Shown here piece after piece: positions 2,854-38,506 of a stretch of DNA of 64,000 nt (the stretch's first letter is position 1; each line of letters begins with the position of its first letter). The stretch spans positions 1 through 64,000 of IMG/VR virus record IMGVR_UViG_3300032213_001070; one strand, 5' to 3'. Made by a program: the position numbers and the translations under genes. The notes under the pieces are model-generated. The model ran no database searches and had not been told where the DNA came from. It was given only the letters and a program-made list of their open reading frames with translations. This DNA is from a virus.

Positions 2854-2855
2854 TC

Positions 2856-3146: not shown

Positions 3147-3381
3147 GAATCCAGAAGGAGGTCTTAATGCTAAAGGAGTAGCAAGTTATAGAGCAGCTAA
3201 TCCAGGTAGTAAACTTCAGACAGCTGTAACTACTAAACCTTCTAAGTTAAAACCTGGAAGTAAAGATGCTAAGAGACGCAAGAGCTTCTGTAGCAGAATG
3301 TCTGGGATGCCTGGACCTATGAAAGATGAAAAAGGAAGACCTACAAGAAAAGCTCTTTCTTTAAGAAAATGGAACTGTTAA
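3109..3381 (+). CDS. Small basic phage protein (DUF6321-like by recall)
   Basis: 90 aa; AWQRKEGKNP.GGLN.KG...RRKSFC.RM.GM...SLRKWNC pattern. Confidence 0.7.
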   Translation: MAKSPAWQRKEGKNPEGGLNAKGVASYRAANPGSKLQTAVTTKPSKLKPGSKDAKRRKSFCSRMSGMPGPMKDEKGRPTRKALSLRKWNC

Positions 3382-3391
3382 ATTATATATA

Positions 3392-3787: not shown

Positions 3788-3788
3788 A

Positions 3789-4451
3789 ATGAAAACTTGT
3801 AAATCAGGATGTGGAGGCAAAATGAAAGCCGGAGGATCTGTAAAGAAAATAAAGAAAATGGCTCATGGTGGTCAAGCTCTAAATAAAGCTAAAGGATTTG
3901 CCCCTGCACAAAAAGGCGGTGACAATGTATCTAAACAAATTTATGGTATACCTAATGCTGGTACTACTGGTCCAAATAGAACTGCTGGATATGACTATAA
4001 AAAAGGTGGCTCAGTTAAAAAATTAAAGAAAGCACAAAACGGTGCTGAAGTTGATCTTGATGCTCCACCATTTAAAACTAGAAGTTCTAAAATTGGTGTT
4101 GGTCTTATAGGTTCTGGAATAGCCGGTATGGCAACAAAAGCTATTGCAGATAAAGTAAAAGCTAGAAAAGCTGCTAAAAAAGCTTCTGAAGAAAAAAAGA
4201 AAAATGAAACTACTAAAGCTAAATTTGGTGCAGAAGTAAAAGTGCAAAGAGGTTATCCAGGTAAAATCAGATCTTCTGAAGCTCAAGGATACACAGCTGT
4301 TGGTAAAAGAGAGCCAGGAAGAACTAAGTTTCCTAAACTTGCTAAAGGTGGTTTTCCAGATCTAACAGGAGATGGTAAAGTAACTAAAGCGGATGTTCTT
4401 AAAGGTAGAGGTGTTATCAAGAAAAAAGGTGGTGCAGTTAAAAAGAAATAA
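3789..4451 (+). CDS. Basic protein with multiple xxxGG motifs and a C-terminal EF-hand/dockerin-like loop
   Basis: 220 aa; KMKAGG, KMAHGG, YKKGG, KAQNG, KAKFG, LAKGG, KKKGG; DLTGDGKVTKAD loop. Confidence 0.75.
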   Translation: MKTCKSGCGGKMKAGGSVKKIKKMAHGGQALNKAKGFAPAQKGGDNVSKQIYGIPNAGTTGPNRTAGYDYKKGGSVKKLKKAQNGAEVDLDAPPFKTRSSKIGVGLIGSGIAGMATKAIADKVKARKAAKKASEEKKKNETTKAKFGAEVKVQRGYPGKIRSSEAQGYTAVGKREPGRTKFPKLAKGGFPDLTGDGKVTKADVLKGRGVIKKKGGAVKKK

Positions 4452-14579: not shown

Positions 14580-15613
14580 TGGATTTTAATTACACACTCC
14601 GCTATAGAACATTTGATCAACTCTTAGAAGATGTAACAATTGATCTAAACACATTTGCTCTAGAAAATATGATAGAGCCTCAGCAGCTTATTAAATTAGT
14701 TAGAAAACTAAACTATGAGCTTGGTCTTAGAATCAATCAACAGAAAGAAGTTGTTCTAGAGATATGTCATGGTAATGTAAAACTGCCAGATGATTTTAAT
14801 GTATGGAACTATGCTTTGGTATGTTCTGAAGTAACTGAACATGTTGGTTATGATATGGGCGGTACTAATATTCAAGAAGTACCCTACAAAGAAGTACCTA
14901 GCACTGTAAATACTTGTGCTCCTGATACAGTTAATTGTAGAACATGTAATTCTAATCCATGTAATAAAACTGCAGCATGTGATCTTAATCATCCTATAGT
15001 AGATCCTATACCTACAGAGTATGATCCTAATAATCCTTATGGTAATACCTGTATTGCTCCTAGAGTATTCATGAACTGTAAGAATGAAAAGTATGAATTA
15101 ATACAAGTAATTAATCCAGCTGTTACAAGAATCTATAGATCTCTTACTCCATTGAGAATGAAAAGAAGTCAAGAGATAGAATGTGATTGTCCTAATCTGT
15201 ATTATAACACACTTGATCAAGGGTGGTTAAAGAATGGATATTTATTTACTACATTCCAAACCGGAAAAGTATATGTTAATTATATGGGTGAGTTAGAAGA
15301 TGAGAATGGAAACTTAATGGTTCCTGACCATCCATTAATTAATGAATACTATGAGTATGCTCTTAAGAAAAGAATTATAGAAAACTTAGCTCTTAATGGA
15401 GAGGATGTAGCACAAAGACTTAACATAATTATACCTGATTATAAAGCTGCTAGAAACAATGCATTAAGTCTCGTTAATACACCAAACTTCAGAGAAATGG
15501 AAGAACTATGGTGGCAGAATAGAAGAGCTCAGTATGCTAAGTATTATGATATGTTTAAATCATATCAAAGAGGAAATTATTCAAGAACTTGGAATGATAA
15601 TAGAGTAATCTAA
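14579..15613 (+). CDS. Tail ring/tubular protein with Cys-rich insertion
   Basis: 344 aa; V.LP.D and DENG.LM.PD motifs of crAss tail tubular proteins. Confidence 0.55.
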   Translation: MDFNYTLRYRTFDQLLEDVTIDLNTFALENMIEPQQLIKLVRKLNYELGLRINQQKEVVLEICHGNVKLPDDFNVWNYALVCSEVTEHVGYDMGGTNIQEVPYKEVPSTVNTCAPDTVNCRTCNSNPCNKTAACDLNHPIVDPIPTEYDPNNPYGNTCIAPRVFMNCKNEKYELIQVINPAVTRIYRSLTPLRMKRSQEIECDCPNLYYNTLDQGWLKNGYLFTTFQTGKVYVNYMGELEDENGNLMVPDHPLINEYYEYALKKRIIENLALNGEDVAQRLNIIIPDYKAARNNALSLVNTPNFREMEELWWQNRRAQYAKYYDMFKSYQRGNYSRTWNDNRVI

Positions 15614-18600
15614 TGGCTAAGAGTAACATTCAAAATACAACAGATAATCAAACTAAATCATTTGTTAAAGGTCTTAACAAAGATTCAGAACCTTCATATA
15701 TAACTGATGGTATGTGGACACATGCTGTTAATGCAATGAATAATACAGCTGAAGGTGATGTAGGTACTTTATCAAATGAGAACTCAAATTTTTTATGCGC
15801 TACTGCTGGTGATACAATGCCTGCAATTATTACACACAAATATATTGTAGGAGCTATACAAATATTTTCAGATAAGTGGGCAATATTTACCGCAGGTCAT
15901 AATGCACAGGGACAACCTGTTATGTCTGAGGTTGGTTTATTTGAAGAAGATGTATGTAGATATAGACCTATTGTTCAAGATATCTGTTTAAGATTTGATA
16001 AAAGATATCTTATCTCTGGATCAGCTAGAGAAAAAGAAGATTGTACTTGGCAAGTATATTGGGCAGATGGTAATAATCCAGATAGGTATTTAAATATTGG
16101 TGATCCAAAAACATGGCCAGGACCAGATTATAGTTGGTTAGGCGGTGGTGCATCTAGTATGAACTACTATTCTAATGGTACAGTAATAGATTTTTTATGG
16201 CCTGGGGTAGCATGGAATGAAGTAGCACAAACAGTAAATAACTGTACTACATTTATAAAACAAAACTCTCTTGATTGTGATCAAACAAGGTTAGCAAGAT
16301 TAATGAAGACACCATGTCTTAAGTTAACTAGAGGTCAGCAAGGGGGGACAATGGCAAATGGAACTTACTTTGCAGTTATAGCTTATACCATAAAGGGTCA
16401 AAAAGTAACAGATTATTTTGCTCCTAGTAACAATCAGTTTTTATTTACCCCAAATGATCTTGAGAGTTCATTAACACTTGAAGTATCAGCAGACTTTGAA
16501 AACTTTGATGAGTTTGTATTAGTTATGGTGCAAAATATAAATCAAGGTACAGTTGCAAAACAAATTGGATTTTATTCTACTAGAACAAGTGTAATTGCAC
16601 TTGATCAAATTGACCCAAGTCTGGTAACTATCCCAATAGAGCAGTTACCTATTCAGACACCGGTTTTTGAAAAGTCGGATCAAATGACTGATGTAAATAA
16701 CTATTTACTCAGAGTAGGGCCTACATCAAAGTTTGATTTTAACTATCAACCGCTTGCTAATCTTATTAGAGCCAAGTGGGCTTCAGTAGAATATCCAGCA
16801 GACTATTATATGAATGGAGGTAGTAATACTAATTATCTTAGAGATGAGGTATATGCTTTCTTTATACGTTGGGTATATGACACTGGGGATAAATCTGCAT
16901 CATATCATATTCCGGGAAGAGCTCCTAATCCAACTGGCTTTACTATTCCGGGTACATCAACTGTAGTAGCAGAAACACAAGATATTAATGTAGCCAACGC
17001 ATTAGCTACAGATGATAGAGCATTTGAAGTTTATAATACTGCATATTCTACAGCTAGTATATATACAGGAACAACACTTGCTGATGGAGGTGTAGTTATT
17101 GGTGCCGGAGATATGGGCTATTGGGAATCTACTGAAGTGTACCCAGATGACAGACCTGATATATGGAATTCAAGTTATTATTGTTGGACAACACCAGCTG
17201 GTCAAAGTCCGCAGCATGATTTATGTGGTCAACCTATAAGACATCATAAGTTTCCAGAAAACTTTTTAAATAATAGTTCTAGTACTGTTACAACACATTT
17301 TAGAAATAACGCAAACCCTTCTACTATTGGTAATGATTATTTCATAAGACTAATGGGTGTATACTTTGAGAATATAATATTACCTAAAGACCAAGATGGT
17401 AATGATATACCAGGTATAGTTGGTTATGAAATCCTTAGAGGTTCAAGAGAAGGTAACAAGACAATAGTTGCTAAAGGTATGCTAAATAACTTTAGAACTT
17501 ATGATATAAAAGGATCGGCTGCAAAAGGAAGAACAGGTTTATATGCTAACTATCCTTTTAATACAATTGAACCCATAGGACCTAATGCAGGTGATATGGT
17601 GGGAGTTGATGATCCTTATTTTCACAATATGGCTCAAAGCATTCCAACTGATATCATATCTTTTCATTCACCTGATACAATGTTTAGAACTCCGTTCTTA
17701 AATACAACAGAGTTAAAATTATATGGTAACTTATTTGGATACAGTACACAGCAATTTATAGAACCAGATAAACATCCTAAGTTTAAACTATTAGGTGATG
17801 CTGCTTTATTTCCTATGTTTCTTTTGGGTATTGCTGAAGCAATCATTTCCGCAACAGGTAAAAGAACATATGACTTACCTGCAATTGCTCCTGCTAGTGG
17901 TGTAAGTGATGCATTTGGAGCTGTTCCTGCTGCATATGTTACTGCAGCAACAGCATTAGGACTACCTGTTACGGGTCCATTAGCTATTTATAATACTTTT
18001 TTAGATACATACTATGCTTCAGGAGTTGCATTAGCCGATGCAGGTTTGGCTATAATAGGTGCTCCAACAGCAGCAGGTTTAGCTGAAGCAGCATTAGTTA
18101 ATGCTCTTAATGTATCTGCAATAGCACAAGTAAATGCTCCTATAGTTCAAACAGGTACTATTGAGTTTCCAAAGTATGCATATCTACCAACACCACTTAG
18201 AGCTTTAGGTGCAGTTAATCAGCTAATCTTTTATTTTTCAGAAGGTGCAAGTGTTGTTTTAGATTTAATGTATGCTTTAGGACCATATAGACAATATGCA
18301 TTACAACAAATAGCCCATGGATTTTATAGCAGTATAAATAGAAATGCTGTTAATGATTTATTTAGATTTAAGATTGAAGAAAGTTTCTATATGAGAGACA
18401 ATATTCAAGAAGTATCAAGATATCAAGATGCTATATCTGGACTATATAAATCTTATAGTATTAATAATCTTAAAAGACCTGACTCAGTTGTAATAAGAAC
18501 CAAGACAGGTCCTTACTTTGCTCCAGCTTACCCAAATGGTATAAACATAGGACCAAGTTTATTAAATACAGATAAATCTCTTGTAACTTTAGGTACTGTT

Positions 18601-20988
18601 GAACAAGCAAATGATTTTTTACAAGGTGGTTTTTTTGCTCCCGGGCCTAGACCTGATTTTGATAATACTGAAGTTCCTTTTAGTTTGCCTATTGGTAGTC
18701 ATTATGCGGCTATTAAAGGAAGAGTAAGAAATCAATATGGACAGTTAACAGGTATTAAGCAAATTGTAATAACACCATGTGAACAAAAATTCAATCCATT
18801 AACAATACCGACTTTAGGTCCTTATTCATTAGCAGGATGCACAGGTACGTTTACTTATAAAGTAATTAATCAAAGTCCAATATTATTTAATGGTGATACA
18901 TATGTAAACAGATATACTGAAAAAAACACAATGTGTTTTTATTATGATTGGTTATATGGGCAACCCGATGGTTTTGAATACAACTACTACATAAGACAGC
19001 TTATACCTAATGTAAGATTTAATGTAAATAGCATTAGATATGATGTATCAGATTTAGGAGCATTAATAAACTTTAATAGCCCATCTCTTCCTGGAACAGG
19101 GGGTAATCCAACTGACTTTTATAATTTAGATTATTACAGAAATAGTTCTAGAAAATATAATTATGTTACAGATCAACCACAGGGTATACCAGATACATAC
19201 CCTGGTGTATTCTTTGCAAAAGAATCTAAGTTCTATATAGCAAACTCTTCTGTTAGAGATTTCTTTGTAGAATCAGAAGTACTTATAGACTTTAGAAAAC
19301 AAGGAGACTATGACTGGGAAAAACATTATGATCCTTATAGATTTACTAATTATCAAGTATTCTTTAATGCAGATCCACAAATACTAGGAAGAGGTAATGT
19401 ATATATCTATGACTACTCATTGAGTGTATCTAAGTTATATAATCAGTATTTTTCATCAGGTATAGTACAAAGTAAATACTATGATCCTACAGTTGCTAAG
19501 TTATGTTATACATACTTTCCTGATAGAATTATATACTCTTTACCACAACAGGATGAGTCTATGAAAGATAGTTGGTTTGTATTCTTAGCAAACAACTATA
19601 AAGAATTTAAGTCTCAGATTTCTGGAGTTAAGTCTATAAACAAATCCGGTATCTTTATTACTTTCAAAAATGATAGTCCTTTAATGTATCAGGGTGTTGA
19701 TACTTTACAGACAGATCTAGGTACTAAGATTACTATAGGTGACGGAGGTTTATTTAGTCAACCACAACAGTCAATTACAAATGCTGATAGACCATATGAA
19801 TATGGTTCATCACAAAACAGACTCTCTGTAATTTCATCTCCTGCTGGATTATTTTATACATCTCAAAACCAAGGAAAAATATTTAGTTATTCTGGTGGTT
19901 TAGATGAGATATCTCAAAATGGTATGAAGTGGTGGTTTATTTTGTTTATGCCTTACAAACTTACAGAGGATTTTCCTGACTACCCATGGCAAGACAATCC
20001 AGTAGCTGGAATTGGTATGCAAGCAGTATATGATAACAATAATACTATCTTATACTTTGCTAAGAAAGATTACAAAGTTAAAGAACAATATAAAGATAAA
20101 TTAGAATATGTACCATTAGAAGCTAAAGGAAAAGGTGATTACTTTAGGTTATCAGATCAACCGGCATCAAGATTTTTACTAGGAGATCCAACTGTATTTG
20201 ATAATGCATCATGGACAATGAGCTATGATCCTAAGAATAAGTTCTGGATTAGTTTCCATGACTGGCACCCGGATCTTACAATTCCTACAAAAGATGTGTT
20301 CTTAACTAGTAAGAATAATACTATATGGAAACATAATTTGCTATGTAATGATTACTGTAAGTTCTATGGAGTTAACTATCCATTTGAAATAGAAATTCCA
20401 ATACCTACTGGACAGTCAGTTACAACAGTAAAGTCTATAGAGTATATACTAGAATGCTATAGAAGATCTGCCTTTAACTGTGTAGATCAATTCCATGTAT
20501 TAGACTTTAACTTTGATCATGCTGTTATCTATAATACAGAACAAGTTTCCGGATATCTAAATCTTAATCTATTCCCTAAGAATAATATATCTTTGAGTCT
20601 ACAGTATCCTAAGTTAAATCCTAACCTAGCATCTTATGATGTACTTTATTCTAAAGAAGAACAGAAGTATAGAATAAATCAATTCTGGGATATAACTAGA
20701 GATAGAGCAGAGTTTCCTATTGGGTCTAATTACCCTCCAACGGGACCTCTAATTCCAGGAACTACAATCTTGCAAGGTAATTATGATGATCAATATATTT
20801 GGTTAACTGGTCCTGATGGATATAGCAGAACTCTTAATCCGGCAAATATGGATTATACTAAACCATTATTGCAAAGAAAAAAATTCAGACATTACTTAAA
20901 TTACATAACTTTAAGAAAAGATATTTCTGGAGATGTAAACATGATCTTCAAATTACTTAATACAAAGAATCAGCAATCACCTAGATAA
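15613..20988 (+). CDS. Tail stabilisation/muzzle protein (P22 gp10-like, crAss-type)
   Basis: 1791 aa; N-terminal F.KGLNKD...W.HA.N..N...G..G.LSNE motif, YW.DG.NP, and C-terminal WISFHDW.P. Confidence 0.7.
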   Translation: MAKSNIQNTTDNQTKSFVKGLNKDSEPSYITDGMWTHAVNAMNNTAEGDVGTLSNENSNFLCATAGDTMPAIITHKYIVGAIQIFSDKWAIFTAGHNAQGQPVMSEVGLFEEDVCRYRPIVQDICLRFDKRYLISGSAREKEDCTWQVYWADGNNPDRYLNIGDPKTWPGPDYSWLGGGASSMNYYSNGTVIDFLWPGVAWNEVAQTVNNCTTFIKQNSLDCDQTRLARLMKTPCLKLTRGQQGGTMANGTYFAVIAYTIKGQKVTDYFAPSNNQFLFTPNDLESSLTLEVSADFENFDEFVLVMVQNINQGTVAKQIGFYSTRTSVIALDQIDPSLVTIPIEQLPIQTPVFEKSDQMTDVNNYLLRVGPTSKFDFNYQPLANLIRAKWASVEYPADYYMNGGSNTNYLRDEVYAFFIRWVYDTGDKSASYHIPGRAPNPTGFTIPGTSTVVAETQDINVANALATDDRAFEVYNTAYSTASIYTGTTLADGGVVIGAGDMGYWESTEVYPDDRPDIWNSSYYCWTTPAGQSPQHDLCGQPIRHHKFPENFLNNSSSTVTTHFRNNANPSTIGNDYFIRLMGVYFENIILPKDQDGNDIPGIVGYEILRGSREGNKTIVAKGMLNNFRTYDIKGSAAKGRTGLYANYPFNTIEPIGPNAGDMVGVDDPYFHNMAQSIPTDIISFHSPDTMFRTPFLNTTELKLYGNLFGYSTQQFIEPDKHPKFKLLGDAALFPMFLLGIAEAIISATGKRTYDLPAIAPASGVSDAFGAVPAAYVTAATALGLPVTGPLAIYNTFLDTYYASGVALADAGLAIIGAPTAAGLAEAALVNALNVSAIAQVNAPIVQTGTIEFPKYAYLPTPLRALGAVNQLIFYFSEGASVVLDLMYALGPYRQYALQQIAHGFYSSINRNAVNDLFRFKIEESFYMRDNIQEVSRYQDAISGLYKSYSINNLKRPDSVVIRTKTGPYFAPAYPNGINIGPSLLNTDKSLVTLGTVEQANDFLQGGFFAPGPRPDFDNTEVPFSLPIGSHYAAIKGRVRNQYGQLTGIKQIVITPCEQKFNPLTIPTLGPYSLAGCTGTFTYKVINQSPILFNGDTYVNRYTEKNTMCFYYDWLYGQPDGFEYNYYIRQLIPNVRFNVNSIRYDVSDLGALINFNSPSLPGTGGNPTDFYNLDYYRNSSRKYNYVTDQPQGIPDTYPGVFFAKESKFYIANSSVRDFFVESEVLIDFRKQGDYDWEKHYDPYRFTNYQVFFNADPQILGRGNVYIYDYSLSVSKLYNQYFSSGIVQSKYYDPTVAKLCYTYFPDRIIYSLPQQDESMKDSWFVFLANNYKEFKSQISGVKSINKSGIFITFKNDSPLMYQGVDTLQTDLGTKITIGDGGLFSQPQQSITNADRPYEYGSSQNRLSVISSPAGLFYTSQNQGKIFSYSGGLDEISQNGMKWWFILFMPYKLTEDFPDYPWQDNPVAGIGMQAVYDNNNTILYFAKKDYKVKEQYKDKLEYVPLEAKGKGDYFRLSDQPASRFLLGDPTVFDNASWTMSYDPKNKFWISFHDWHPDLTIPTKDVFLTSKNNTIWKHNLLCNDYCKFYGVNYPFEIEIPIPTGQSVTTVKSIEYILECYRRSAFNCVDQFHVLDFNFDHAVIYNTEQVSGYLNLNLFPKNNISLSLQYPKLNPNLASYDVLYSKEEQKYRINQFWDITRDRAEFPIGSNYPPTGPLIPGTTILQGNYDDQYIWLTGPDGYSRTLNPANMDYTKPLLQRKKFRHYLNYITLRKDISGDVNMIFKLLNTKNQQSPR

Positions 20989-23243
20989 TGTTTAATAAAA
21001 AAGTTTTACAACAAGCAGTTAAGGATTTAGATAAGGCTAAGAAACCAGCTAAGTCAAAAGATATTATTGTAGACCCTAGAGGTCAATGGGCTTTCCCGGG
21101 AGAAGTAACTAGAATACCTTCTAATACAATTACTATGGAAGGAGTAGATTATCCTGTACTTGGTATACCCAATTATGGAGAACCAAAGATAATGATGCCG
21201 GGACAGTACTATGAGTTTCCAGAAGCTGACTATGTTGATGAGTATCCTGAGTTTGCTGAAGGCGGTAGTGCAGGATGCCCTAAAGGATTTTATTATAATG
21301 GAAAAGAATGTGTTAAAAGTTTTGTTCCTGTAGCAAAACAAACACCAAAAGCAAAATCAGTTACAAAAAATAAAAAAGAACAAGAATTACTTGATTACGG
21401 TAAAAAAACTTTACCTAATAAAAAAGTTACAAGTAAACCTATTGACAATATACCTTTTTATGGTGATATTAGTAATGCTGTGCAACCTGATGATTTAATA
21501 GAAAATATAGTAGAAGTTGCAGACCCTACTGGAGTTTTTTCTTGGGATGATGCTTATAGAGCAAAAACAGCATGGGATAAATCAGGTTCTAAATATCCTA
21601 GTGCAAATCAAGTTTTAGATATGTTTGGAGCCGTTCCAGGCTTAGGTAAATTAGGAAAACTAAAGTATTTAAAAAATGCAAGTGCTATAAAAAATTCTAT
21701 GAAATATGTAGCACCTGCATTTGGAGTTATTCCTTGGCAACAAATAGTAAACGCAGTTGATACAGGTCAAGATATTAATCAAGACAATATTAAATTTCAA
21801 GATGGTGGAGAATATGTAGAACTAGATCTTACTCCAGAAGAAATACAAGAGTATGCTAAAGGAGGTTACATTGTAGAAGATATCTCTGTACCTTTATTAA
21901 CAAAAGCACAAAGAGGTTTATTTAAGAAAAAAGATAAACAAGACCCAAACAAGTTAGAATATAGAGAACCTGTAAAAGTAGAAGATGATCTTGTAGAATC
22001 AGTAACTCCTTTTCCAGAGGCTCCTGAAGATTTTAAAAAAGGTGTAGCTAACTTAAAAGAAGTAGAAGCAGGTCCTTATTGGCTTGGTATATCAAGAGAA
22101 TATTCTGGTAAACATAATAAACAAGCATATATAGATAAAAAGAAAAGACAATATCTTAGAAATACCAATAGAGGTTTAGCAAAAGCTGCTGGGCTTAATA
22201 TGGAAAATTTTCCTAAAGATGTAGAAAAGAACTTTATCAATGAATACAACTACAAGAGAAATAACTATGTAGTAAAGAATCTTTTTAAAAATGCAGGTGT
22301 ATCACCTAATAAGAGAGAAGAATGGGTTGATACAATAAATTCAGATAATAATGCAGATGTAAGAGCATTAATTAAAAATTCTAAATATGGTAATAAACTT
22401 AAACCAAGTATTTGGGCTAGAACCTTAGCAGGTCTTGGTACAATGGCTTCTAAGTTTAGTCCAGAGATTGCTGATGCAATGGAGCGGGGTGATTTACCTG
22501 GTTTAACTAGAGAAGAACAAAGAGCTATTAAAAATGCAAATATTAAAGGCATTCCTGTAGGAGGCATAGAAGCATTAGCAGGAGCAGACGCAGTTGGTGT
22601 AGCACTGGCTAATGCAGTAGAAGCATCTGGTAATGAATCATACGGAGGTGATTATAAAAAAGCACCCGGATTATTATCAGGAGATGTAATGCCAAAGATT
22701 ACTGATGATCAGATAGCTGTATTAAATCCGTCTACATATACTGTTGGTTATGATTTGGCTCCTGTAGGAAAAGGTCTTTTAAAAGGTGTAACTAAAATTG
22801 GTAAAGCAAGTGTTAAAGCTGGAAAAGCCGGTATTAAATCAGGTAAGAAATTTGGAAAAAGTATATCTGAAATAGATTTAAAACCTGCTATGGGAAAGTT
22901 ACAAGCTCATTTTGACAGACCTCCCGGACCACTTATGCTTGGTATGTCTAAAGGTGCTATCTTTGATAAAGAAATTAAGAACCCTGATTACTTTACTGAT
23001 TTAATGAAGATTAATAAATATAGTCCAAAGCAAAAGAAGTATTATGAAGGGCTTGTTAACTCAGTTAAGAAGCAAGGTAACATGGCTAGTCAAAAACAAT
23101 ATGATGAACTTCAAAGGCTTAAAACTGGAGATACTAATTATGGTAAAAAAGGTTATGCAAAAGGAGGAATTGTATCTGATTTATCCAGAAAAGAAATTGA
23201 TAAGCTTGTAGCTCAAGGTTATATAGTAGAAACTGTGGACTAA
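20988..23243 (+). CDS. Probable internal cargo protein, modular, with xxxGG motifs
   Basis: 751 aa; N-terminal DPRGQW.FPG..T.IPSN.ITM.GV.YP domain; FAEGG, FQDGG, YAKGG motifs. Confidence 0.6.
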   Translation: MFNKKVLQQAVKDLDKAKKPAKSKDIIVDPRGQWAFPGEVTRIPSNTITMEGVDYPVLGIPNYGEPKIMMPGQYYEFPEADYVDEYPEFAEGGSAGCPKGFYYNGKECVKSFVPVAKQTPKAKSVTKNKKEQELLDYGKKTLPNKKVTSKPIDNIPFYGDISNAVQPDDLIENIVEVADPTGVFSWDDAYRAKTAWDKSGSKYPSANQVLDMFGAVPGLGKLGKLKYLKNASAIKNSMKYVAPAFGVIPWQQIVNAVDTGQDINQDNIKFQDGGEYVELDLTPEEIQEYAKGGYIVEDISVPLLTKAQRGLFKKKDKQDPNKLEYREPVKVEDDLVESVTPFPEAPEDFKKGVANLKEVEAGPYWLGISREYSGKHNKQAYIDKKKRQYLRNTNRGLAKAAGLNMENFPKDVEKNFINEYNYKRNNYVVKNLFKNAGVSPNKREEWVDTINSDNNADVRALIKNSKYGNKLKPSIWARTLAGLGTMASKFSPEIADAMERGDLPGLTREEQRAIKNANIKGIPVGGIEALAGADAVGVALANAVEASGNESYGGDYKKAPGLLSGDVMPKITDDQIAVLNPSTYTVGYDLAPVGKGLLKGVTKIGKASVKAGKAGIKSGKKFGKSISEIDLKPAMGKLQAHFDRPPGPLMLGMSKGAIFDKEIKNPDYFTDLMKINKYSPKQKKYYEGLVNSVKKQGNMASQKQYDELQRLKTGDTNYGKKGYAKGGIVSDLSRKEIDKLVAQGYIVETVD

Positions 23244-23257
23244 ACTTTATAAGTTTA
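23241..23257 (+). promoter_or_regulatory. Palindromic operator-like site
   Basis: TAAACTT-TAT-AAGTTTA; a 16/17 identical copy lies at 29121-29137. Confidence 0.45.
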
Positions 23258-23300
23258 CCCATTAAATTAAAAATTAGTATATTTAATTATAAACACAATT

Positions 23301-26054
23301 ATGGCAAAAGTAAGAATACGCAAAGCCGGTCCAGGAGAGAAACCTGGATATTATAATAAAACAGCAATGTTCTTGAAAAAGGCACAGGACGGAATGCAAG
23401 TAGAATCATATGCTCCTACTAGCCAAGAAGAAATGCTCCAAGCTTATTATATGTATGCATATGGTCAACTAGTTAATGATGTTGAACCAGATAATGTGTA
23501 TAATGAATTAGTTGACAAAGGTCTACCGCAACAAATTGCAGTTAGACTTATTGACTCTCTCATGGATAGATTAACAGAAGAAGGAGAAATCAGTCCAGAG
23601 TATAAACAAAACAAAGAGGCACAAGCACAAGCAGAAGCAAAACAAGAACAACCTGCAGAAGAGACATCAGAAGAAGAAACACCTGCAGAAGCAGAAGATG
23701 AGTCTATGTATGAAGAAGATCAAGAGATGGCTGACTTAGAAGAAGGCTATGCTGATGATAGATCATACATGCAAGATGGAGGTGAGCAAGAGGAAGAAGA
23801 TGTTGAATATAGTGAAGATGGTGCATCAGCTGTAATAGATCAGTATGATGAAGTAAAGCAAGGATCACAAGATGAAGTTACAAACATTGATGAGTTGATT
23901 GCAAATACTCCAGGTATACAACCTGGTTTAAACTTTCCTGGTTTAGCAGAATATGTTCCAGATTATCAAGAGATAGAGTGGCAACCAATTGATGCTTTAG
24001 AAACTTCTCAAGCTGAAGTACCGCAAGAAATGAAGCATGGTGGTGCTCATAATAAAAGAAACTTTGTAAAAAATGTAATGTCTCTTCTAAAAAAACAAGA
24101 TGGTGGTGAAGGAGAAGAGGAGCAAAAAGAAGATAAATCATTAGGCAAAGGTAATCCTATGGATACTATAACTGATGATGTAAAAAAACATAAGAACAAT
24201 TTCCTAGATGCTATTAAGACTAAAGCTACTAAAGTTAAGACAGAAGAGATGTATGATAAGATGATGAAGTCAAATGACCCATCATTACAGCAAATGGCAA
24301 TGCAAGGAGAACAGCCTGAAGAACAACCATATCAAATGGGTGGAATGACAGGTGGTGAAGATCCATTATACAAATTTTTTGGTGGTGGTGAAGAAGATCC
24401 TGATTACTATGAAGCAGACTTTTTACCAGAAGCTCAGTATGGAGCTAATGTTCCAAATGCAACTGAGATTAATGACTATATTAAAAAAGTCATTGAACAA
24501 AATAAAAAAAATAACAAGGGTAATAAATCAACAGTAGTACCTAAGGCTACAATTAAATATGTACCTAGATATCATACTGGACCTGGATCATTCCGTAATG
24601 TTATGCTACCTTGGAATCCTATATTTGGTAACAGATATATGTTACAAGGTAGTCCGTACATGTTAGGATCACGTATGCCATATATGGATCCATTAACTGG
24701 AATGAAACCTGTTGCTAGACACGTCAGCAAAAGAGGAATCTTAGGTAGACCAAAACAATGGACAGATATATACTCTGTAGATGCTATGGGTAAATTACCT
24801 AATATGGATCCTAGTGTATTTAAATATTTAGGATTATCTAATAACTCAACTCCTAATAAGGTTTTACCAACAAGTGGTAGGTCAGATACTTCAGGACTTA
24901 CTCTTCCTTCTAAAACAGCTATAAAAGCTGGTGAAAGAGAAATGGCTAGAAATGCTAGAAGATTAGCTAGAAATCCAGAGTTACTTGAAGTTGGACCTCC
25001 TGCAGCTAAAACAGTTCCTGATAACTCTGAGACAGAAAAATTCTTACATCAAAGAAAACAACAAGGATATGTTTTAGATGAGAATGGTAACTGGATAAAG
25101 ATAGGTACTCCAAAAATGGAAATCAGAAAACCAGAGAGAGAATCTAAACTAGCAGGAGTTGATAGAATTAATTATGAGAAAACAATTAGAGAATCTGGTT
25201 CTAGAGCTGATCAGGAAAGACCAATTGGTAATAGAGCATATGAGGAAAGAAACAGAAGAATATCTCCTTCAAAAGAAAAACTGAATGAGCTCTATAGTAG
25301 AGATGTAATGGAAGAGCAAAGATATGGAGGAATACATAGATTTATCCCAAAAGCAAATAATGGTTTAACTATTAATAATCCTAATCTTCCACAGCCAGGT
25401 CCAGCTAATCCTGATCTTGCTGTAGGAAATCAAGCAGGAATGTTAACTATGCAACCACAACAACAAGCATGGTCATCATTAACACCTAATGTACCACAAC
25501 AACAATCTAATCAACCTATATCATTACCAACCAGAAGTTCTAAAGAAGTTGGTCAACAATTAATGGACAGTAGTAAAAAGAAACTAGAAGGTGAAGCTGA
25601 CATGGATCCTAAAGGTAACTTAGTAGGAGTTGACTATAAAAGAAAACGTAACTTTGATGGTGAAGCAGCAGTAAACATATTTAATGCAGGTATGAGAGGT
25701 GTAACAGGATTCTTAAATAGAAGAGATGATAAGAGAAAAGAAGCACAAATGTATGATAATATGACATCTGACAATCTTTATGCAGCACAAGCTACTAAAC
25801 ACCGTGGTGACTGGGTAGACTTAGGTTCTCAAATGGGTCAATTCCGTTTTGATCAAATGGGTCAAGACAGAAGCGGTTTCTCATCATATGGTAAATATGG
25901 TGGTTACATGCAGGATGGTGGAGAAATGGACTATGCTCCTGAAGAAGATTACCAAGATTTTACACCTAGTTATGAAGAGGGTGATGAAGTTTATATGACT
26001 GAGGATGACATTCAACAATTTATGGCCAATGGTGGTCAAATAGAATATATATAA
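23301..26054 (+). CDS. Probable internal cargo protein, acidic/low-complexity, many xxxGG motifs
   Basis: 917 aa; no Cys seen; Glu-rich tracts. Confidence 0.6.
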   Translation: MAKVRIRKAGPGEKPGYYNKTAMFLKKAQDGMQVESYAPTSQEEMLQAYYMYAYGQLVNDVEPDNVYNELVDKGLPQQIAVRLIDSLMDRLTEEGEISPEYKQNKEAQAQAEAKQEQPAEETSEEETPAEAEDESMYEEDQEMADLEEGYADDRSYMQDGGEQEEEDVEYSEDGASAVIDQYDEVKQGSQDEVTNIDELIANTPGIQPGLNFPGLAEYVPDYQEIEWQPIDALETSQAEVPQEMKHGGAHNKRNFVKNVMSLLKKQDGGEGEEEQKEDKSLGKGNPMDTITDDVKKHKNNFLDAIKTKATKVKTEEMYDKMMKSNDPSLQQMAMQGEQPEEQPYQMGGMTGGEDPLYKFFGGGEEDPDYYEADFLPEAQYGANVPNATEINDYIKKVIEQNKKNNKGNKSTVVPKATIKYVPRYHTGPGSFRNVMLPWNPIFGNRYMLQGSPYMLGSRMPYMDPLTGMKPVARHVSKRGILGRPKQWTDIYSVDAMGKLPNMDPSVFKYLGLSNNSTPNKVLPTSGRSDTSGLTLPSKTAIKAGEREMARNARRLARNPELLEVGPPAAKTVPDNSETEKFLHQRKQQGYVLDENGNWIKIGTPKMEIRKPERESKLAGVDRINYEKTIRESGSRADQERPIGNRAYEERNRRISPSKEKLNELYSRDVMEEQRYGGIHRFIPKANNGLTINNPNLPQPGPANPDLAVGNQAGMLTMQPQQQAWSSLTPNVPQQQSNQPISLPTRSSKEVGQQLMDSSKKKLEGEADMDPKGNLVGVDYKRKRNFDGEAAVNIFNAGMRGVTGFLNRRDDKRKEAQMYDNMTSDNLYAAQATKHRGDWVDLGSQMGQFRFDQMGQDRSGFSSYGKYGGYMQDGGEMDYAPEEDYQDFTPSYEEGDEVYMTEDDIQQFMANGGQIEYI

Positions 26055-26063
26055 TTTTATATT

Positions 26064-29000
26064 ATGTTAAGAAGAGTAAGAATTAAAAAGCTACCCCAAG
26101 CTAAAACAGGATACCAAGTAAGAGGATCATTATATAATGATGTACCTTCTATGGGTGGTGGCGCAGACTATAATGCATATATAGGTGAACCACATTTAAA
26201 AGCTAGTAAATATATTACTGCTGTTCCTAGAGAAGAAGCTAACTTAGAAGCAGAAGGTGGTGAAACTGTATTTGGTGATATCAATGGAGATGGTATGCCA
26301 GAACATAAAACTATCAAAGGCCCTAGACACTCTGAAGGCGGAGTACCTTTAAAACTTCCTGATGATAGTTTTATTTTCAGTGATACTAAGTCAATGAAAA
26401 TGAAAGAACCAAACTTCCTTGCTATGTTTGGTAAAAAAACCGGATCATATACACCAGCAGAACTTGCTAAACAGTATGATGTAGAAAGATATAGAAAGAT
26501 ACTACAGGATCCTAATTCAGATATGTTAGATAAAAAGACAGCTGAATTAATGTTAAAAAACTATACACTTAAGTTAGGAGCTTTAGCATTAGCACAAGAA
26601 AGCAAGAAAGGATTCCCGCAGGGTATACCGGCAGTAGCTAGACCATATATGGAAGCTATGGGTATTAAAGATGAAGATGTATTACCTGATCAACAAATTA
26701 CTTCTACTATTAAGGAATTAGATCAACAACAAAAGAATAATCAAAGAAGTGCTGCTACTATGGCTTCACCTACTGAAGAACAAGATGAAGAGTATGGTGA
26801 TGAAGCTGAAGAAGCACAAATGATGAATAGTGATAGACCTGTTGCAACACCAGAACCTATGGAAGATGAAGCTGCAGGAATGACACCAGAAGAAGCTGAA
26901 ATGCAGTTTGGTGGCATGTTATCATCTGATAGAGCATTTGCTTTCCAAAATGGTGGATGGCTTCCAGAAGAAGTTGCAGTATTTACAGGTACTGTACCTT
27001 ATGCTGAATATGGTATGGCTATGGGGGTTAATCCTCAAAACTATGAAGGTAGAAAAAAACATATCCATGGAGCAACAAGATTTTTCCAAAATGGAGGTAA
27101 CTTACCAAAAGCTCAAGGAGGAATAGAAGTTGATATAACTGGTATGACACCTCAACAAAGAGATAAAGCCTTAGATGAAGCAAGAACTAAAAATCCAGGT
27201 AAAGAAATCAATGTTATTGAAAATGGTAAAAAGAAATCAGCTAAGTATAAAAAGTTAAAAGCACAAGAGCTTACAGATATAGAAGGAGTGGATATGAAGA
27301 CATTTGGAAATACTCCAAACTCTGTAGCTGCTGCTGCTCAATATAAACTTCTTGAGAAGAACTTAAAAGATCCTAAAGTAATGAACAAGCTTTATGAAGA
27401 AACAATAAGTTCATTAAAAGATAAAAGATCTTATGTGGGTAAAGATGGTGTACAAGGAAAAACTTGGGAAGAAAGAGGAAATGCTTTACCATCTCCTGCA
27501 GAAGTAAGAGATCAGTTCTTAACACATCAGAAAAGAAACTTATCATTCCGTGGACAAAATATAGATCCTAACTTATTTACAGATACTGGTGCAGGATTAG
27601 CTCCTGCTGCAGAACTTATAAAAAGAGGTGCTATTAATCCTAAGACTGGTAAAAAAATTACTAATGAAGAAGAAGCAAAAGAAGCTAAAGAACATATGCG
27701 TCAAACATATGGTGGTGGAAGAAAAGGTTATACTAAAGATGGTGAAATAATTGATGTTTCTATAGATGAGGTATCAGGTAAGATTGGTATACCATTAGAG
27801 AAAGATGAAAAATCAAGAGCCTTGCAACAAGCTACTTTCCATGGTTATACACATATGGCAGAGAATAAAGGTAATTATGATGCAGATACTCAATATGCAC
27901 TTAAGAACTTTATTCCAGAATCATTACAAGCTGGAGTGGGAGATGAGATAAGTATGGGTAAAGGTTTGTTTAAAAATAAAGGTGTACAGATATCTCCTAT
28001 TGATGACTTTTATAAACTTGATGATGAAGAATATAAATCTAAAGCTGGTAACACTACATTAGGTCACTTAGCAGGTGCTGGTCTTGAAGAGTATACTTTT
28101 GAAGATATAAATGAAGGACCTTGTGAATGTGAAGATGGGTCTAAACCACAACGTAAAGAAGATGGTACATGTCCATGTGAAACTAAACCTAAAGGTGAAA
28201 AACCATGCCCATGTGAAAAATCTGATGGTACAAAAATTGATGTTGGTGTTAATCCTAATACTGGAGAATGTAATCCATGTGTAGAAGAACAACCCGTTGA
28301 TATTGAACAACCAGCTGAATGGTGGTTACAAGATACTATTAAAACTGCCGGAGCATTTGGAGATTTAATGAGTATTAAGAAACATATGCCTTGGGCACCA
28401 AGAGTTGATCTTGAAACACCAAGACCTACATTCTTAGATCCTACTAGAGAGTTAGCTGCTAATGCTGAACAAGCAAATATTCAGACACAGGCTGCTGCAC
28501 AATTTGCAGGACCTCAAGCATTATCCGCAAGAGCATCTAGTATTCAAGGTACTGCTGCTAAAAATGCCGCAGATGTATTATCTAAATATAACAATGCTAA
28601 TGTTAATATAGCAAATCAGTTTGAGACACAAGCAACTAATATCCGGAATCAAGAACAGATGATGAATCAAGCTGGTACTCAAAGACTGTATGATCAAAAC
28701 ACAGTAGCTAATCAGCAGTTTGATAATGCTAAGCTTGCTATGAGAAGTAACTTGAGAAATCAGTATACTAATGCTATTACTAATAGAGCTAAGACAGCTG
28801 CTCTTAATGATCTGTATCCTCAGTATGCGGTTAGCCCGGCTACCGGTGGATTTAATAGATTCCAGAATCCAAAAGATTTTACTGGAGAAAAAACCAGTAC
28901 TACTAAAACATATGATGAATGGCTTAAGTATTATATAGACCAAGGTAACACACCTGAACAAGCTTCTACAAATGCAAAGAATGCAGTAAATACTCAAGCT

Positions 29001-29123
29001 TCTAGTGGTGGAACTACTGACAAAGCAGCTATGGCAAAACAAATGGGTTATGGAGCATATGGAGGTCAGTTAAAGAAAGGTGGATTTGTGTATGCCGATG
29101 TTATCTATCCATTTATACTATAA
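26064..29123 (+). CDS. Probable internal cargo protein with conserved crAss-type N-terminal domain
   Basis: 1019 aa; EAEGGET...GP.H.EGGVP..LP..SFIFSD motif; Q/N/A-rich coiled-coil C-terminus. Confidence 0.65.
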   Translation: MLRRVRIKKLPQAKTGYQVRGSLYNDVPSMGGGADYNAYIGEPHLKASKYITAVPREEANLEAEGGETVFGDINGDGMPEHKTIKGPRHSEGGVPLKLPDDSFIFSDTKSMKMKEPNFLAMFGKKTGSYTPAELAKQYDVERYRKILQDPNSDMLDKKTAELMLKNYTLKLGALALAQESKKGFPQGIPAVARPYMEAMGIKDEDVLPDQQITSTIKELDQQQKNNQRSAATMASPTEEQDEEYGDEAEEAQMMNSDRPVATPEPMEDEAAGMTPEEAEMQFGGMLSSDRAFAFQNGGWLPEEVAVFTGTVPYAEYGMAMGVNPQNYEGRKKHIHGATRFFQNGGNLPKAQGGIEVDITGMTPQQRDKALDEARTKNPGKEINVIENGKKKSAKYKKLKAQELTDIEGVDMKTFGNTPNSVAAAAQYKLLEKNLKDPKVMNKLYEETISSLKDKRSYVGKDGVQGKTWEERGNALPSPAEVRDQFLTHQKRNLSFRGQNIDPNLFTDTGAGLAPAAELIKRGAINPKTGKKITNEEEAKEAKEHMRQTYGGGRKGYTKDGEIIDVSIDEVSGKIGIPLEKDEKSRALQQATFHGYTHMAENKGNYDADTQYALKNFIPESLQAGVGDEISMGKGLFKNKGVQISPIDDFYKLDDEEYKSKAGNTTLGHLAGAGLEEYTFEDINEGPCECEDGSKPQRKEDGTCPCETKPKGEKPCPCEKSDGTKIDVGVNPNTGECNPCVEEQPVDIEQPAEWWLQDTIKTAGAFGDLMSIKKHMPWAPRVDLETPRPTFLDPTRELAANAEQANIQTQAAAQFAGPQALSARASSIQGTAAKNAADVLSKYNNANVNIANQFETQATNIRNQEQMMNQAGTQRLYDQNTVANQQFDNAKLAMRSNLRNQYTNAITNRAKTAALNDLYPQYAVSPATGGFNRFQNPKDFTGEKTSTTKTYDEWLKYYIDQGNTPEQASTNAKNAVNTQASSGGTTDKAAMAKQMGYGAYGGQLKKGGFVYADVIYPFIL

Positions 29124-29137
29124 ACTTTATATGTTTA
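29121..29137 (+). promoter_or_regulatory. Second copy of the palindromic operator-like site
   Basis: TAAACTTTATATGTTTA, overlapping the stop codon of the upstream gene like the first copy. Confidence 0.45.
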
Positions 29138-29206
29138 TTAAACTTTAAAAATTTTAATAGCTTTACAACAAAGAAAAAACAAAACAACTTTTAAATACTT
29201 ATAAAT

Positions 29207-38502: not shown

Positions 38503-38506
38503 TTAG

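What the first reader, a model, noticed from the sequence alone, without database searches (positions are those of the whole stretch)
21819..26090. Second, non-covalent C-to-N docking code among the upstream cargo proteins
Seen: the 751-aa and 917-aa proteins end in the same short motif, SDLSRKEIDKLVAQGYIVETVD* (23175-23240) and EVYMTEDDIQQFMANGGQIEYI* (25986-26051). A third copy, ELDLTPEEIQEYAKGGYIVED, is internal at 21819-21881. The genes that follow the two terminal copies begin with the same basic strand, MAKVRIRK (23301) and MLRRVRIKK (26064). Inference: a small beta-alpha-beta acceptor binds the KVRI[RK]K strand of the next gene product, analogous to NRPS/PKS docking domains. This would extend gene-order chaining to the front of the cargo block, and the extra internal copy could give branching or 1:2 stoichiometry.
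Basis: partly seen in the sequence, partly recalled or inferred. Interest (0 to 1): 0.72.

Follow-up and report, generated by a model that had tools for sequence, protein, structure and literature searches.

The report
End-to-end clasps on phage cargo proteins
In this uncultured crAss-like phage, each of two proteins that are probably packed in the particle and injected ends in a small acidic module, the next protein starts with a basic strand, and relatives lack both pieces exactly where the two genes are fused, so the pieces most likely clip the proteins head-to-tail.

Summary
A 22-residue acidic motif ends the 751-aa and 917-aa proteins and occurs once inside the 751-aa protein. The next genes start with MAKVRIRK and MLRRVRIKK. 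These genes follow the crAss muzzle gene, so they are cargo proteins by position.

- **Co-occurrence:** in about 180 related loci, all 146 non-redundant terminal motifs are followed by a strand-starting gene. Fourteen strand-starting genes follow a protein with no terminal copy. Every complete upstream protein among these still has an internal copy.
- **Protein-level selection:** third codon positions vary most.
- **Fusion test:** in two distant clades, natural fusions of the two neighbouring proteins lack exactly the motif and the strand. One genome with such a fusion keeps the pairs at its other junctions. One lineage has both elements degenerate together.
- **Structure prediction:** AlphaFold2 on a stop-codon read-through construct gives strand-helix-strand plus the next protein's strand at pLDDT about 80. 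The same strand alone is coil at pLDDT 59.

Best reading (0.6): non-covalent head-to-tail docking by beta-sheet augmentation, which works like PKS/NRPS docking domains without being a member of that family. Binding is unproven, partner specificity (a "code") is not shown, and the branching idea is untested. I found no paper describing this. The scan has noted the same pattern before on other DNA.

The parts
15613..20988 (+). Muzzle protein gene (1791 aa). It places the following genes in the cargo block of a crAss-like phage.
   Evidence: Pfam crAss_MUZ PF25731, E 1.6e-27; PHROG virion structural protein.
20988..23243 (+). Cargo protein 1 (751 aa). It has no N-terminal strand, one internal motif copy and one terminal motif copy.
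   Evidence: ORF. The position directly behind the muzzle gene, with a TAATG overlap, is kept in all relatives.
21813..21881 (+). Internal copy of the acidic motif (residues 276-298, YVELDLTPEEIQEYAKGGYIVED).
   Evidence: HMM 29.2 bits. Internal copies are conserved in most relatives.
21879..21917 (+). Segment DISVPLLTKAQRG, which follows the internal copy. Most relatives have DISVPSLxxxQxGG here; some have ELPxAQxG.
   Evidence: The profile of the N-terminal strand does not detect it.
23166..23240 (+). Terminal motif of cargo 1 (type A: ...GIVSDLSRKEIDKLVAQGYIVE + TVD, then stop).
   Evidence: HMM 28.7 bits. There are 69 non-redundant type A junctions in relatives; the last 25 residues have mean net charge -4.6.
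23241..23300 (+). Spacer of 57 nt after the stop codon. It holds the hairpin TAAACTT-TAT-AAGTTTA (23241-23257, includes the stop codon) and then an AT-rich box ...AAAAATTAGTATATTTAAT. This is probably a terminator/promoter pair and is not part of the protein clasp.
   Evidence: Spacer length is 56-59 nt in most relatives (46-64 over all type A junctions), and its sequence is conserved in relatives. The palindrome pattern occurs 5 times in the window against 0.23 expected. A second copy lies right after the cargo 3 stop.
23301..26054 (+). Cargo protein 2 (917 aa). It has an N-terminal strand and a terminal motif.
   Evidence: ORF. There are 134 homologues at E <= 0.001; of the 120 listed, 110 end in the type B motif and nearly all start with the strand.
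23304..23324 (+). N-terminal basic strand of cargo 2 (AKVRIRK, type a).
   Evidence: The first 10 residues of type a proteins have mean net charge +5.6.
25980..26051 (+). Terminal motif of cargo 2 (type B: GDEVYMTEDDIQQFMANGGQIE + YI, then stop).
   Evidence: HMM 38.3 bits. AlphaFold2 gives strand E27-30, helix H32-40 and strand E44-51 at pLDDT about 80. The motif is absent from the natural cargo2-cargo3 fusions.
26052..26063 (+). Stop codon plus a 9-nt spacer (TAATTTTATATT). The close spacing suggests translational coupling of cargo 2 and cargo 3.
   Evidence: The gap is 1-10 nt, median 9, in 94 non-redundant type B junctions.
26064..29123 (+). Cargo protein 3 (1019 aa). It has an N-terminal strand, a flexible linker, a conserved domain around PRxxANLEAEGGE, and a conserved C-terminal end ...GGFVYADVIYPFIL.
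   Evidence: AlphaFold2 gives the domain pLDDT 80-88 and the linker below 50.
26070..26096 (+). N-terminal basic strand of cargo 3 (RRVRIKKLP, type b).
   Evidence: V5 and I7 are invariant in 25 relatives. It is a beta-strand at pLDDT about 81 next to the motif, and coil at pLDDT 59 when cargo 3 is folded alone. It is absent from the fusions.

Best explanation
The 22-residue acidic motif is a small strand-helix-strand module at the very C-terminus of cargo proteins 1 and 2. The basic strand M-x(0-5)-(K/R)-V-(R/K)-I at the very N-terminus of the next gene's product adds to it as a further beta-strand (beta-sheet augmentation, helped by opposite charges). This would tether the separately translated cargo proteins non-covalently, head to tail, in gene order: cargo 1, then cargo 2, then cargo 3.

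The likely use is co-packaging in fixed proportion and ordered, threaded N-to-C ejection through the tail.

Shown here: the two elements exist, sit at the termini, are under protein-level selection and co-occur. Both are jointly absent where the genes are fused, and both are degenerate together in one lineage. The AlphaFold2 model is compatible with pairing.

Inferred: physical binding, the geometry of the contact, and the role in packaging and ejection order.
For: 1. **Co-occurrence.** Among 634 non-redundant + strand gene junctions of 147 loci, 146 have a terminal motif and all 146 are followed by a strand-starting gene. In 474 junctions neither element is present (two apparent exceptions there were failures of my regular expression).
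2. **Fusion against split, clade 1.** Eight representative clusters, less than 50% identical to each other, are single proteins joining cargo 2 to cargo 3. P0147 aligns to window cargo 2 up to residue 871 and to cargo 3 from residue 12. Cargo 2 residues 872-917, which hold the motif, and the first 11 residues of cargo 3 (MLRRVRIKKLP) are missing. The motif HMM finds no copy in any fusion.
3. **Same genome control.** L156/L157 carry a fused cargo2-3 protein without either element, yet keep motif-strand pairs at their two other junctions.
4. **Fusion against split, clade 2.** In a second, distant clade, L184 has the split form with motif and strand, and P0257 is the fused form lacking both.
5. 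**Joint degeneration.** In L146/L161/L162 the motif is truncated and the strand altered together.
6. **The strand belongs to the terminus, not to the domain.** It stays at the extreme N-terminus when about 700 residues are inserted before the conserved domain (P0232, P0252, P0256). It is tandemly duplicated in some phages.
7. **Structure prediction.** AlphaFold2 on a read-through construct with a paired alignment of 39 loci gives strand-helix-strand plus the next protein's strand, all at pLDDT about 80. The same strand is coil at pLDDT 59 when cargo 3 is folded alone.
8. **Charge complementarity.** The motif tails carry -4.6 to -8.0 net charge and the strands +3.4 to +5.6.
9. **Protein-level selection**.
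10. **Deep conservation.** The cultured Leptolyngbya phage Lbo-JY46, whose muzzle is 25% identical, has the same kind of junction.
11. **Precedent.** In cyanopodophage A4 the C-terminal helix of ejection protein gp27 inserts into gp26 next to gp26's N-terminus, with a Cys1715-Cys5 disulfide (PMC12002296).
Against: - No binding experiment and no multimer prediction with separate chains was possible.
- The AlphaFold2 construct links the two elements by a 4-residue read-through linker, which favours a hairpin. I saw only secondary structure and pLDDT, not contacts.
- Co-occurrence is largely inherited by common descent and synteny.
- Covariation between motif and strand did not exceed shuffles.
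- At the cargo1-to-cargo2 junction, 14 non-redundant cases keep the strand with no terminal motif. No cargo1-cargo2 fusion was found to repeat the fusion test there.
- A newly split junction in one lineage (L091, L097, L098, L103, L105) has no such pair, so not every cargo junction uses it.
- Loss of the inner strand in fusions is also expected if the strand were a per-protein packaging signal.
Confidence: 0.6

Rival explanations
1. The two elements are independent terminal signals. The N-terminal basic strand would be a per-protein packaging or threading signal, like the T4 capsid targeting sequence. The C-terminal motif would bind a third partner such as the portal, the tail barrel or a scaffold. 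They would sit next to each other only because of gene order.
For: A fused protein needs only one N-terminal signal, so loss of the inner strand in fusions fits this reading too. The strand persists in 14 cases without a terminal motif upstream. The strand cores at the two junctions are nearly identical, as expected of a generic signal. In crAss001, resolved cargo fragments bind the portal and the tail barrel (PMC10172136).
Against: Cargo 1 and the downstream cargo proteins (1045, 2050 and 3737 aa and so on) lack the strand, so it is not a general packaging signal. This reading does not predict that the C-terminal motif is lost in the same fusions, or that motif and strand degenerate together. 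AlphaFold2 orders the strand only when the motif is present.
Confidence: 0.2
2. The elements are seam or hinge pieces. The motif and the strand/LPxAQxGG segment would be generic module boundaries of modular cargo polyproteins, acting as folding or spacer elements. Genes would simply tend to break at such seams, with no binding between the ends.
For: Internal motif copies exist and are flanked by the recurrent hydrophobic-Q/K-x-G-G peptides that punctuate these proteins. Module content between seams varies greatly: cargo 1 ranges from 324 to 2789 aa.
Against: The N-terminal strand is never found internally. In fusions the seam is not kept but removed on both sides, precisely. Terminal copies end 2-4 residues before the stop codon in nearly all cases, which suggests that a free C-terminus matters.
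Confidence: 0.12
3. The elements are protease-processing or peptide-ligation sites. They would mark sites where a maturation protease cuts, or where the two proteins are joined covalently and the elements are removed, in the manner of a split intein.
For: The fused homologues look like the product expected if the elements were excised. Gly-Gly peptides recall sites cut by some viral and bacteriocin-leader proteases (my own knowledge).
Against: There is no Cys or Ser at the position of a first intein residue, and no Asn plus Cys/Ser/Thr at the downstream boundary. The cargo proteins are almost free of Cys. In type A copies Gly-Gly is replaced by x-Gly-Tyr, and the spacing differs by one residue from the LSxxELxxIxGG leader consensus. 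I did not annotate the rest of the window, so whether it encodes a protease remains untested.
Confidence: 0.05

Closest known systems
Docking domains of modular PKS/NRPS assembly lines, especially short-linear-motif / beta-hairpin docking pairs (my own knowledge)
   Same: Complementary short elements sit at the C-terminus of one polypeptide and the N-terminus of the next. They follow gene order, bind non-covalently, and become dispensable when the two polypeptides are fused. The proposed contact is beta-sheet augmentation.
   Different: There is no sequence or Pfam relation. The predicted shape is strand-helix-strand plus one strand, not a helical bundle or an alpha-beta-beta-alpha-alpha domain. 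The context is phage virion cargo, not biosynthetic enzymes. Partner specificity is not shown.
Cyanopodophage A4 ejection proteins gp27 and gp26 in the pre-ejectosome (PMC12002296)
   Same: These are ejection proteins of a podophage joined C-terminus to N-terminus. The C-terminal helix of gp27 inserts into gp26, next to residue 5 of gp26.
   Different: In A4 the contact is a helix in a cleft, locked by a disulfide (Cys1715-Cys5). Here it is an acidic mini-module and a basic strand without cysteine. The A4 proteins form a five-fold ring, not a proposed linear thread. I did not test for sequence relation.
Cargo proteins C1 (gp45) and C2 (gp46) of Bacteroides phage crAss001 (PMC10172136)
   Same: The genes lie directly behind the muzzle gene. 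The proteins are stored in the tail and capsid and are ejected N-to-C in a partly unfolded state. The authors state that ejection order probably depends on packing and on interactions between the cargo proteins.
   Different: No terminal docking elements are described there. The window's cargo proteins gave no hit to any Pfam or PHROG family. I did not examine gp45 or gp46 for the motif.
Donor-strand complementation in chaperone-usher pili (my own knowledge)
   Same: An N-terminal extension strand with alternating hydrophobic residues from the next subunit completes the sheet of the previous subunit, giving an ordered head-to-tail non-covalent chain.
   Different: Pilins have an incomplete Ig-like fold and need a chaperone and an usher. 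Here the acceptor is a module of about 25 residues. Whether it is incomplete without the strand is unknown.
Capsid targeting sequence of the phage T4 internal proteins (my own knowledge)
   Same: A short conserved N-terminal peptide on proteins packed into the head and injected.
   Different: The T4 signal is shared by all the internal proteins, binds the scaffold core and is cleaved off. Here only proteins that follow a motif-bearing protein have the strand, and no cleavage is known.

Membership tests
Crassvirales cargo proteins (C1/C2 type) | Encoded directly downstream of the muzzle protein gene in the structural block | tested here: met
   The muzzle gene is identified by Pfam PF25731. The three genes follow it in all related loci.
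Crassvirales cargo proteins (C1/C2 type) | Present in the virion and ejected into the host | not testable with these tools
   The phage is uncultured and no proteomics is available. The assignment rests on position only.
Crassvirales cargo proteins (C1/C2 type) | Sequence homology to crAss001 gp45/gp46 | not tested
   No Pfam or PHROG family hit and no tblastn hit in cultured phages. I made no direct comparison with gp45 or gp46.
PKS/NRPS-type docking domain pairs | Complementary elements at the C-terminus of one protein and the N-terminus of the next, following gene order | tested here: met
   146 of 146 terminal motifs are followed by a strand-starting gene.
PKS/NRPS-type docking domain pairs | Elements absent where the two proteins are fused into one chain | tested here: met
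   Fusions in two clades lack exactly both elements.
PKS/NRPS-type docking domain pairs | Homology or shared fold with known docking domain classes | tested here: not met
   No Pfam hit. Foldseek against the PDB gave no match at E <= 0.001. The predicted shape is strand-helix-strand plus one strand.
PKS/NRPS-type docking domain pairs | Direct, partner-specific binding | not testable with these tools
   Only a single-chain AlphaFold2 proxy was possible. Covariation was uninformative.
Donor-strand complementation (pilus-like) | The N-terminal strand of the next subunit becomes ordered only in the presence of the acceptor | tested here: inconclusive
   The strand is E at pLDDT about 81 with the motif and coil at pLDDT 59 without it. 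However, the construct has a short covalent linker.
Donor-strand complementation (pilus-like) | Ig-like pilin fold with a missing strand | tested here: not met
   The acceptor is about 25 residues, strand-helix-strand.
T4-type capsid targeting sequence | The same N-terminal signal on all packaged internal proteins | tested here: not met
   Cargo 1 and the 1045-, 2050-, 3737-, 308- and 1143-aa proteins start differently.
Split intein | Nucleophile (Cys/Ser) at the first residue of the N-part, and terminal Asn plus Cys/Ser/Thr after the C-part | tested here: not met
   The boundaries defined by the fusions are ...YG(K/Q)xGG | ... and ...KKLP | (Q/K)A(K/R)TG, with no such residues.
Double-glycine leader peptides (C39 peptidase substrates) | LSxxELxxIxGG with invariant Gly-Gly at the cleavage site | tested here: not met
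   The spacing is one residue longer, and type A copies have x-G-Y instead of G-G.

The most novel reading that the evidence does not exclude
All proteins behind the muzzle gene would form one gene-order-collinear thread, the physical order of ejection. The joints would be of different kinds:
- the acidic module / basic strand clasp at the front (cargo 1-2-3);
- a conserved aromatic pair (...YPFIL, then MATYLQGVTDYIP...) in the middle;
- terminal cysteine pairs at the RNA polymerase end.

The clasp would be a portable junction cassette that lets these phages split or fuse cargo genes freely without losing the chain.
Probability: 0.3. Interest if true: 0.88.

Novelty: new variant of a known kind. 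Interest (0 to 1): 0.78.

Why it matters
Crassviruses and their environmental relatives pack megadaltons of protein and inject it before the DNA. How the order and the proportions of these proteins are set is an open question, raised explicitly in the crAss001 structure paper.

A terminal clasp that strings the cargo proteins together in gene order would give a concrete and testable mechanism. It points to defined peptides for binding assays and mutants. One cultured relative, Leptolyngbya phage Lbo-JY46, carries the same kind of junction. The clasp would also explain why these genes can be split, fused and expanded so freely. A clasp of about 25 residues plus about 8 residues might also be of use as a small protein-tethering pair.

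Tried and rejected
- **Close relatives among cultured phages.** None for cargo 2, cargo 3 or the 8-kb DNA. A first scan of viral contigs with cargo 2 found nothing. The muzzle protein then gave 64 loci.
- **Family assignment.** Pfam and PHROGs gave nothing for cargo 1, 2 and 3 and the 1045-aa protein.
- **A nucleotide-level signal as the cause of conservation.** Rejected: third codon positions are the most variable.
- **Stop-codon read-through or bypass across the 57-nt spacer.** Rejected: the next gene is in frame in only some loci.
- **Is the segment after internal copies (DISVPSL...) a cis version of the N-terminal strand?** A profile of the strand does not detect it.
- **Covariation between motif and strand columns** (92 pairs, APC-corrected mutual information). 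Observed maximum 0.17, the same as the largest shuffle. Uninformative.
- **Fused cargo1-cargo2 proteins.** None among longer homologues or in the loci. This is weak evidence of absence.
- **A fused form of the third junction type (...LGYTFEQI, then MAKYRITS).** None found.
- **The look-up of encoding contigs.** I used the search for related loci instead. One such scan, with P0244, found nothing.
- **Foldseek of the model against the PDB.** No meaningful match.
- **Split intein and double-glycine leader readings.** Rejected on residue content and spacing.
- **Cellulophaga phage phi17:2.** It lacks the terminal pair but has the FQxGG peptides. For the gut phage csAssE-Sib I fetched only the annotation of the region behind its muzzle gene, where the gene order differs. 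I did not scan that region for the motif.

Full report
**What the region is.** The window belongs to an 84-kb IMG/VR viral record. The 1791-aa ORF at 15613-20988 matches the Pfam family of the crassvirus muzzle protein (PF25731, E 1.6e-27). Its closest cultured relatives are only distantly related: Leptolyngbya phage Lbo-JY46, Cellulophaga phages phi17:2 and phi4:1, and Flavobacterium phages. The three ORFs that follow are 751 aa (20988-23243), 917 aa (23301-26054) and 1019 aa (26064-29123). They occupy the position of the cargo proteins of crAss001, which are stored in the tail and capsid and ejected N-to-C (PMC10172136). They hit no Pfam or PHROG family. I call them cargo 1, 2 and 3. The name rests on position, not on proteomics.

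A 22-column profile of the motif scores 38.3, 29.2 and 28.7 bits on the three stated places in a six-frame scan of the window. The next best hit is 5.2 bits.

**Conservation in relatives.**
- Using the muzzle protein I fetched 64 related viral loci, 45-80% identical. With the conserved N-terminal domain of cargo 3 I fetched 80 metagenome loci. Further queries added 39 more.
- In these loci the rest of cargo 1 and cargo 2 is extremely variable. Cargo 1 ranges from 324 to 2789 aa.
- The last ~25 residues and the first ~10 residues of the next gene are kept. Cargo 1 ends ...ELTxEEIxxYxxxGY(I/V)(I/V)E plus 2-3 residues (type A). The next gene starts M(K)K(K/R)VRI(Y/R)K.
- Cargo 2 ends ...EVxMTxEE(I/L)xxF(L/M)ANGGx(V/I)E(Y/F)(I/L) (type B). 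The next gene starts M(LR)(K/R)VRIKKxPxA(R/K)TGYQV.
- Some phages have an extra gene and a third junction of the same kind...GDEVxxATMxxLKxLG(Y/F)TFExI, then MAKYRITSxPQ.
- The motif profile hits nothing outside these proteins in 438,710 residues. The strand profile hits only N-termini.
- Codon-position entropy (p3 > p1 > p2; invariant Gly-Gly with variable third positions) shows selection on the protein, not on the DNA.
- The cultured cyanophage Lbo-JY46, with a muzzle 25% identical, has ...LSPEEVAKLIELGYDFEVV, a stop, an 11-nt gap and then MKIRIIGLPKAQ. The junction is therefore old.

**Co-occurrence.**
- Among 634 non-redundant junctions between consecutive + strand ORFs, 146 have a terminal motif, and all 146 are followed by a strand-starting gene. 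(One search lists 144 plus two that my regular expression missed.)
- Fourteen junctions have the strand without a terminal motif. All are cargo1-to-cargo2 junctions. In 474 junctions neither element is present.
- These counts are inflated by common descent, so I looked for natural experiments.

**Natural experiments.**
1. *Fusions, first clade.* A profile search of 1.84 billion representative proteins with the cargo 3 N-terminal domain returned, among the best 150, eight clusters less than 50% identical to each other. Each is a single protein with the cargo 2 N-terminus, including its own strand, and the cargo 3 body. BLASTP shows that P0147 matches window cargo 2 up to residue 871 and cargo 3 from residue 12. 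The 46 residues holding the type B motif and the first 11 residues (MLRRVRIKKLP) are exactly what is missing. The motif profile finds no copy in any fusion.
2. *Control within one genome.* L156 and L157 come from two different metagenomes. Both carry such a fused 1475-aa protein with neither element, yet keep motif-strand pairs at their two other junctions.
3. *Fusions, second clade.* In a second, distant clade, L184 has the split form (...LTEDEIENLRAQGYNIEYLD, stop, then MARVRITKTPKALSGLEVKM). P0257 is the fused form: it joins upstream residue ~902 to downstream residue 10 and again drops both elements.
4. *Joint degeneration.* In L146, L161 and L162, cargo 2 ends in a truncated motif (...KINISDFQDLMRLAGLK) and cargo 3 starts MNKRLTRLPKARTG, without V-R-I.
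5. *The strand belongs to the N-terminus, not to the domain.* In P0232, P0252 and P0256 it stays at residues 1-10 although about 700 residues separate it from the conserved domain. In several phages it is duplicated in tandem. By my reading of the N-termini printed, 128 of the 134 stand-alone representatives start with the strand. Four others look like miscalled start codons and two lack it. The regular expression itself counted 117.

**Structure prediction.**
- The tool predicts single chains only. I therefore used the fact that cargo 3 is in frame with cargo 2 across the 9-nt spacer. I translated window 25908-26513 with TAA read as Gly. This gives 48 residues of cargo 2, a 4-residue linker and 150 residues of cargo 3.
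- I paired it with the same construct from 38 other loci (alignment A2).
- AlphaFold2 predicts strand 27-30 (EVYM), helix 32-40, strand 44-51 (QIEYI plus linker) and strand 54-61 (LRRVRIKK), all at pLDDT about 80.
- A disordered stretch follows (residues 62-100, pLDDT 34-54), and then a folded domain (pLDDT 80-88). pTM is 0.43.
- The control was the same 150 residues of cargo 3 with the same 39 loci (A3). It leaves residues 1-10 as coil at pLDDT 59.
- The strand is therefore not part of cargo 3's own domain and becomes ordered next to the motif.
- Caveats: the short covalent linker favours a hairpin, and I could not inspect contacts or the strand register.

**Other properties.**
- Charges are complementary. 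The last 25 residues carry -4.6 (type A), -8.0 (type B) and -4.8 (third type). The first 10 residues of the next protein carry +5.6, +5.0 and +3.4.
- Internal motif copies are common in cargo 1. They are followed in most relatives by DISVPSLxxxQxGG, and in some by ELPxAQxG.
- Of the non-redundant cases where cargo 1 lacks a terminal copy, every one with a complete cargo 1 (9 of 9) has at least one internal copy. The two without any copy are truncated ORFs. An internal copy may therefore act as the acceptor, but this is inference.

**What is not supported.**
- *A partner-specific code is not shown.* The strand core is nearly the same at both junctions, and covariation did not exceed shuffles. 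Order may come from adjacency instead. Cargo 2 and cargo 3 are separated by only 9 nt, which would favour co-translational pairing (inference).
- *The clasp is not universal.* A lineage that split cargo 2 again has a junction (...KKK, stop, then MYNKKxLRRF) without the pair. Cellulophaga phi17:2 lacks it.
- *The cargo1-to-cargo2 pair* lacks the fusion test, because no such fusion was found.

**Comparison with known systems.**
- The logic matches PKS/NRPS docking domains: terminal, collinear with gene order, and dispensable on fusion. It also matches donor-strand complementation in pili. There is no sequence or fold relation to either.
- The nearest precedent in phages is cyanopodophage A4. There the C-terminal helix of ejection protein gp27 inserts into gp26 and is locked by a Cys1715-Cys5 disulfide (PMC12002296).
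- The crAss001 paper states that ejection order probably depends on interactions between cargo proteins, but it describes no such elements.
- Full-text searches found no paper describing these terminal motifs.
- Earlier notes of this scan report the same acidic-tail / basic-head pattern in other crAss-like genomes. I treat those as leads only. The tests above were run here.

**Verdict.** The docking reading is the best-supported explanation (about 0.6), mainly because fused homologues in two clades lack exactly both elements. Binding, specificity and the role of the internal copy remain to be tested.

Noticed in passing
window 23241-23300 and 29121-29206: The stop codons of cargo 1 and cargo 3 lie inside a conserved short palindrome (TAAACTT-nnn-AAGTTTA). 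An AT-rich box follows (AAAATTAGTATATTTAAT / AAAATTTTAATAGCTTTACA) a fixed distance before the next ATG. The spacer length (most often 57-58 nt after cargo 1) and its sequence are conserved across relatives. This is probably a terminator/promoter pair that divides the cargo block into transcription units. In some relatives the palindrome is read as codons (...KLNKFIY).
   Followed up: partly
window 29080-29123 and 29207-29275: Cargo 3 ends in a conserved aromatic tail (...GGFVYADVIYPFIL). The next protein starts with a strongly conserved MATYLxGVTDYIPxYQPFQPDLNFY. Both are kept across relatives, and the tail is kept on the fused cargo2-3 proteins. This may be a third kind of junction pair.
   Followed up: no
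window 38497-38516, 49709-49726, 50641-50650: The downstream giant proteins end in Cys (...NNIKC, ...SIKCKL, ...KAVC) and the next proteins start M-x-x-C (MITC, MSC, MLSC).
   Followed up: no
window 1547-4451 and 20988-29123: The peptide hydrophobic-(Q/K)-x-G-G recurs in small basic proteins (1547-4451) and in the three cargo proteins. It flanks most motif copies. The N-terminal strand of some cargo 2 proteins runs directly into it (VRLYKAQEGG).
   Followed up: partly
L008, L023, L033, L048, L061 (first gene after the muzzle gene): In some relatives cargo 1 starts MKKLKVDKSKIxGKGLFT..., which looks like the start of a SET-domain methyltransferase. Cargo 1 seems to carry exchangeable enzyme modules.
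   Followed up: no
L031 20402-, L056 24407-; proteins P0174, P0180, P0203, P0252, P0256: The N-terminal strand is duplicated in tandem in cargo 3 (for example RVKITEAPELFKVKITQPP and RVRIKRLPSNKRKVRIKKYP), with no second terminal motif in the upstream protein.
   Followed up: no
L091, L097, L098, L103, L105: In this lineage cargo 2 is split in two. A new ~250-aa protein starts MYNKKxLRRF, which resembles the start of cargo 1, and carries the type B motif at its end.
   Followed up: partly
window 26200-26520: The conserved N-terminal domain of cargo 3 (PRxxANLEAEGGE ... GPRHSxGGVPLxLPDD(S/T)FIFSD) folds with pLDDT 80-88 but has no Pfam hit and no Foldseek match in the PDB. The profile search found 1536 proteins at E <= 0.001.
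   Followed up: partly
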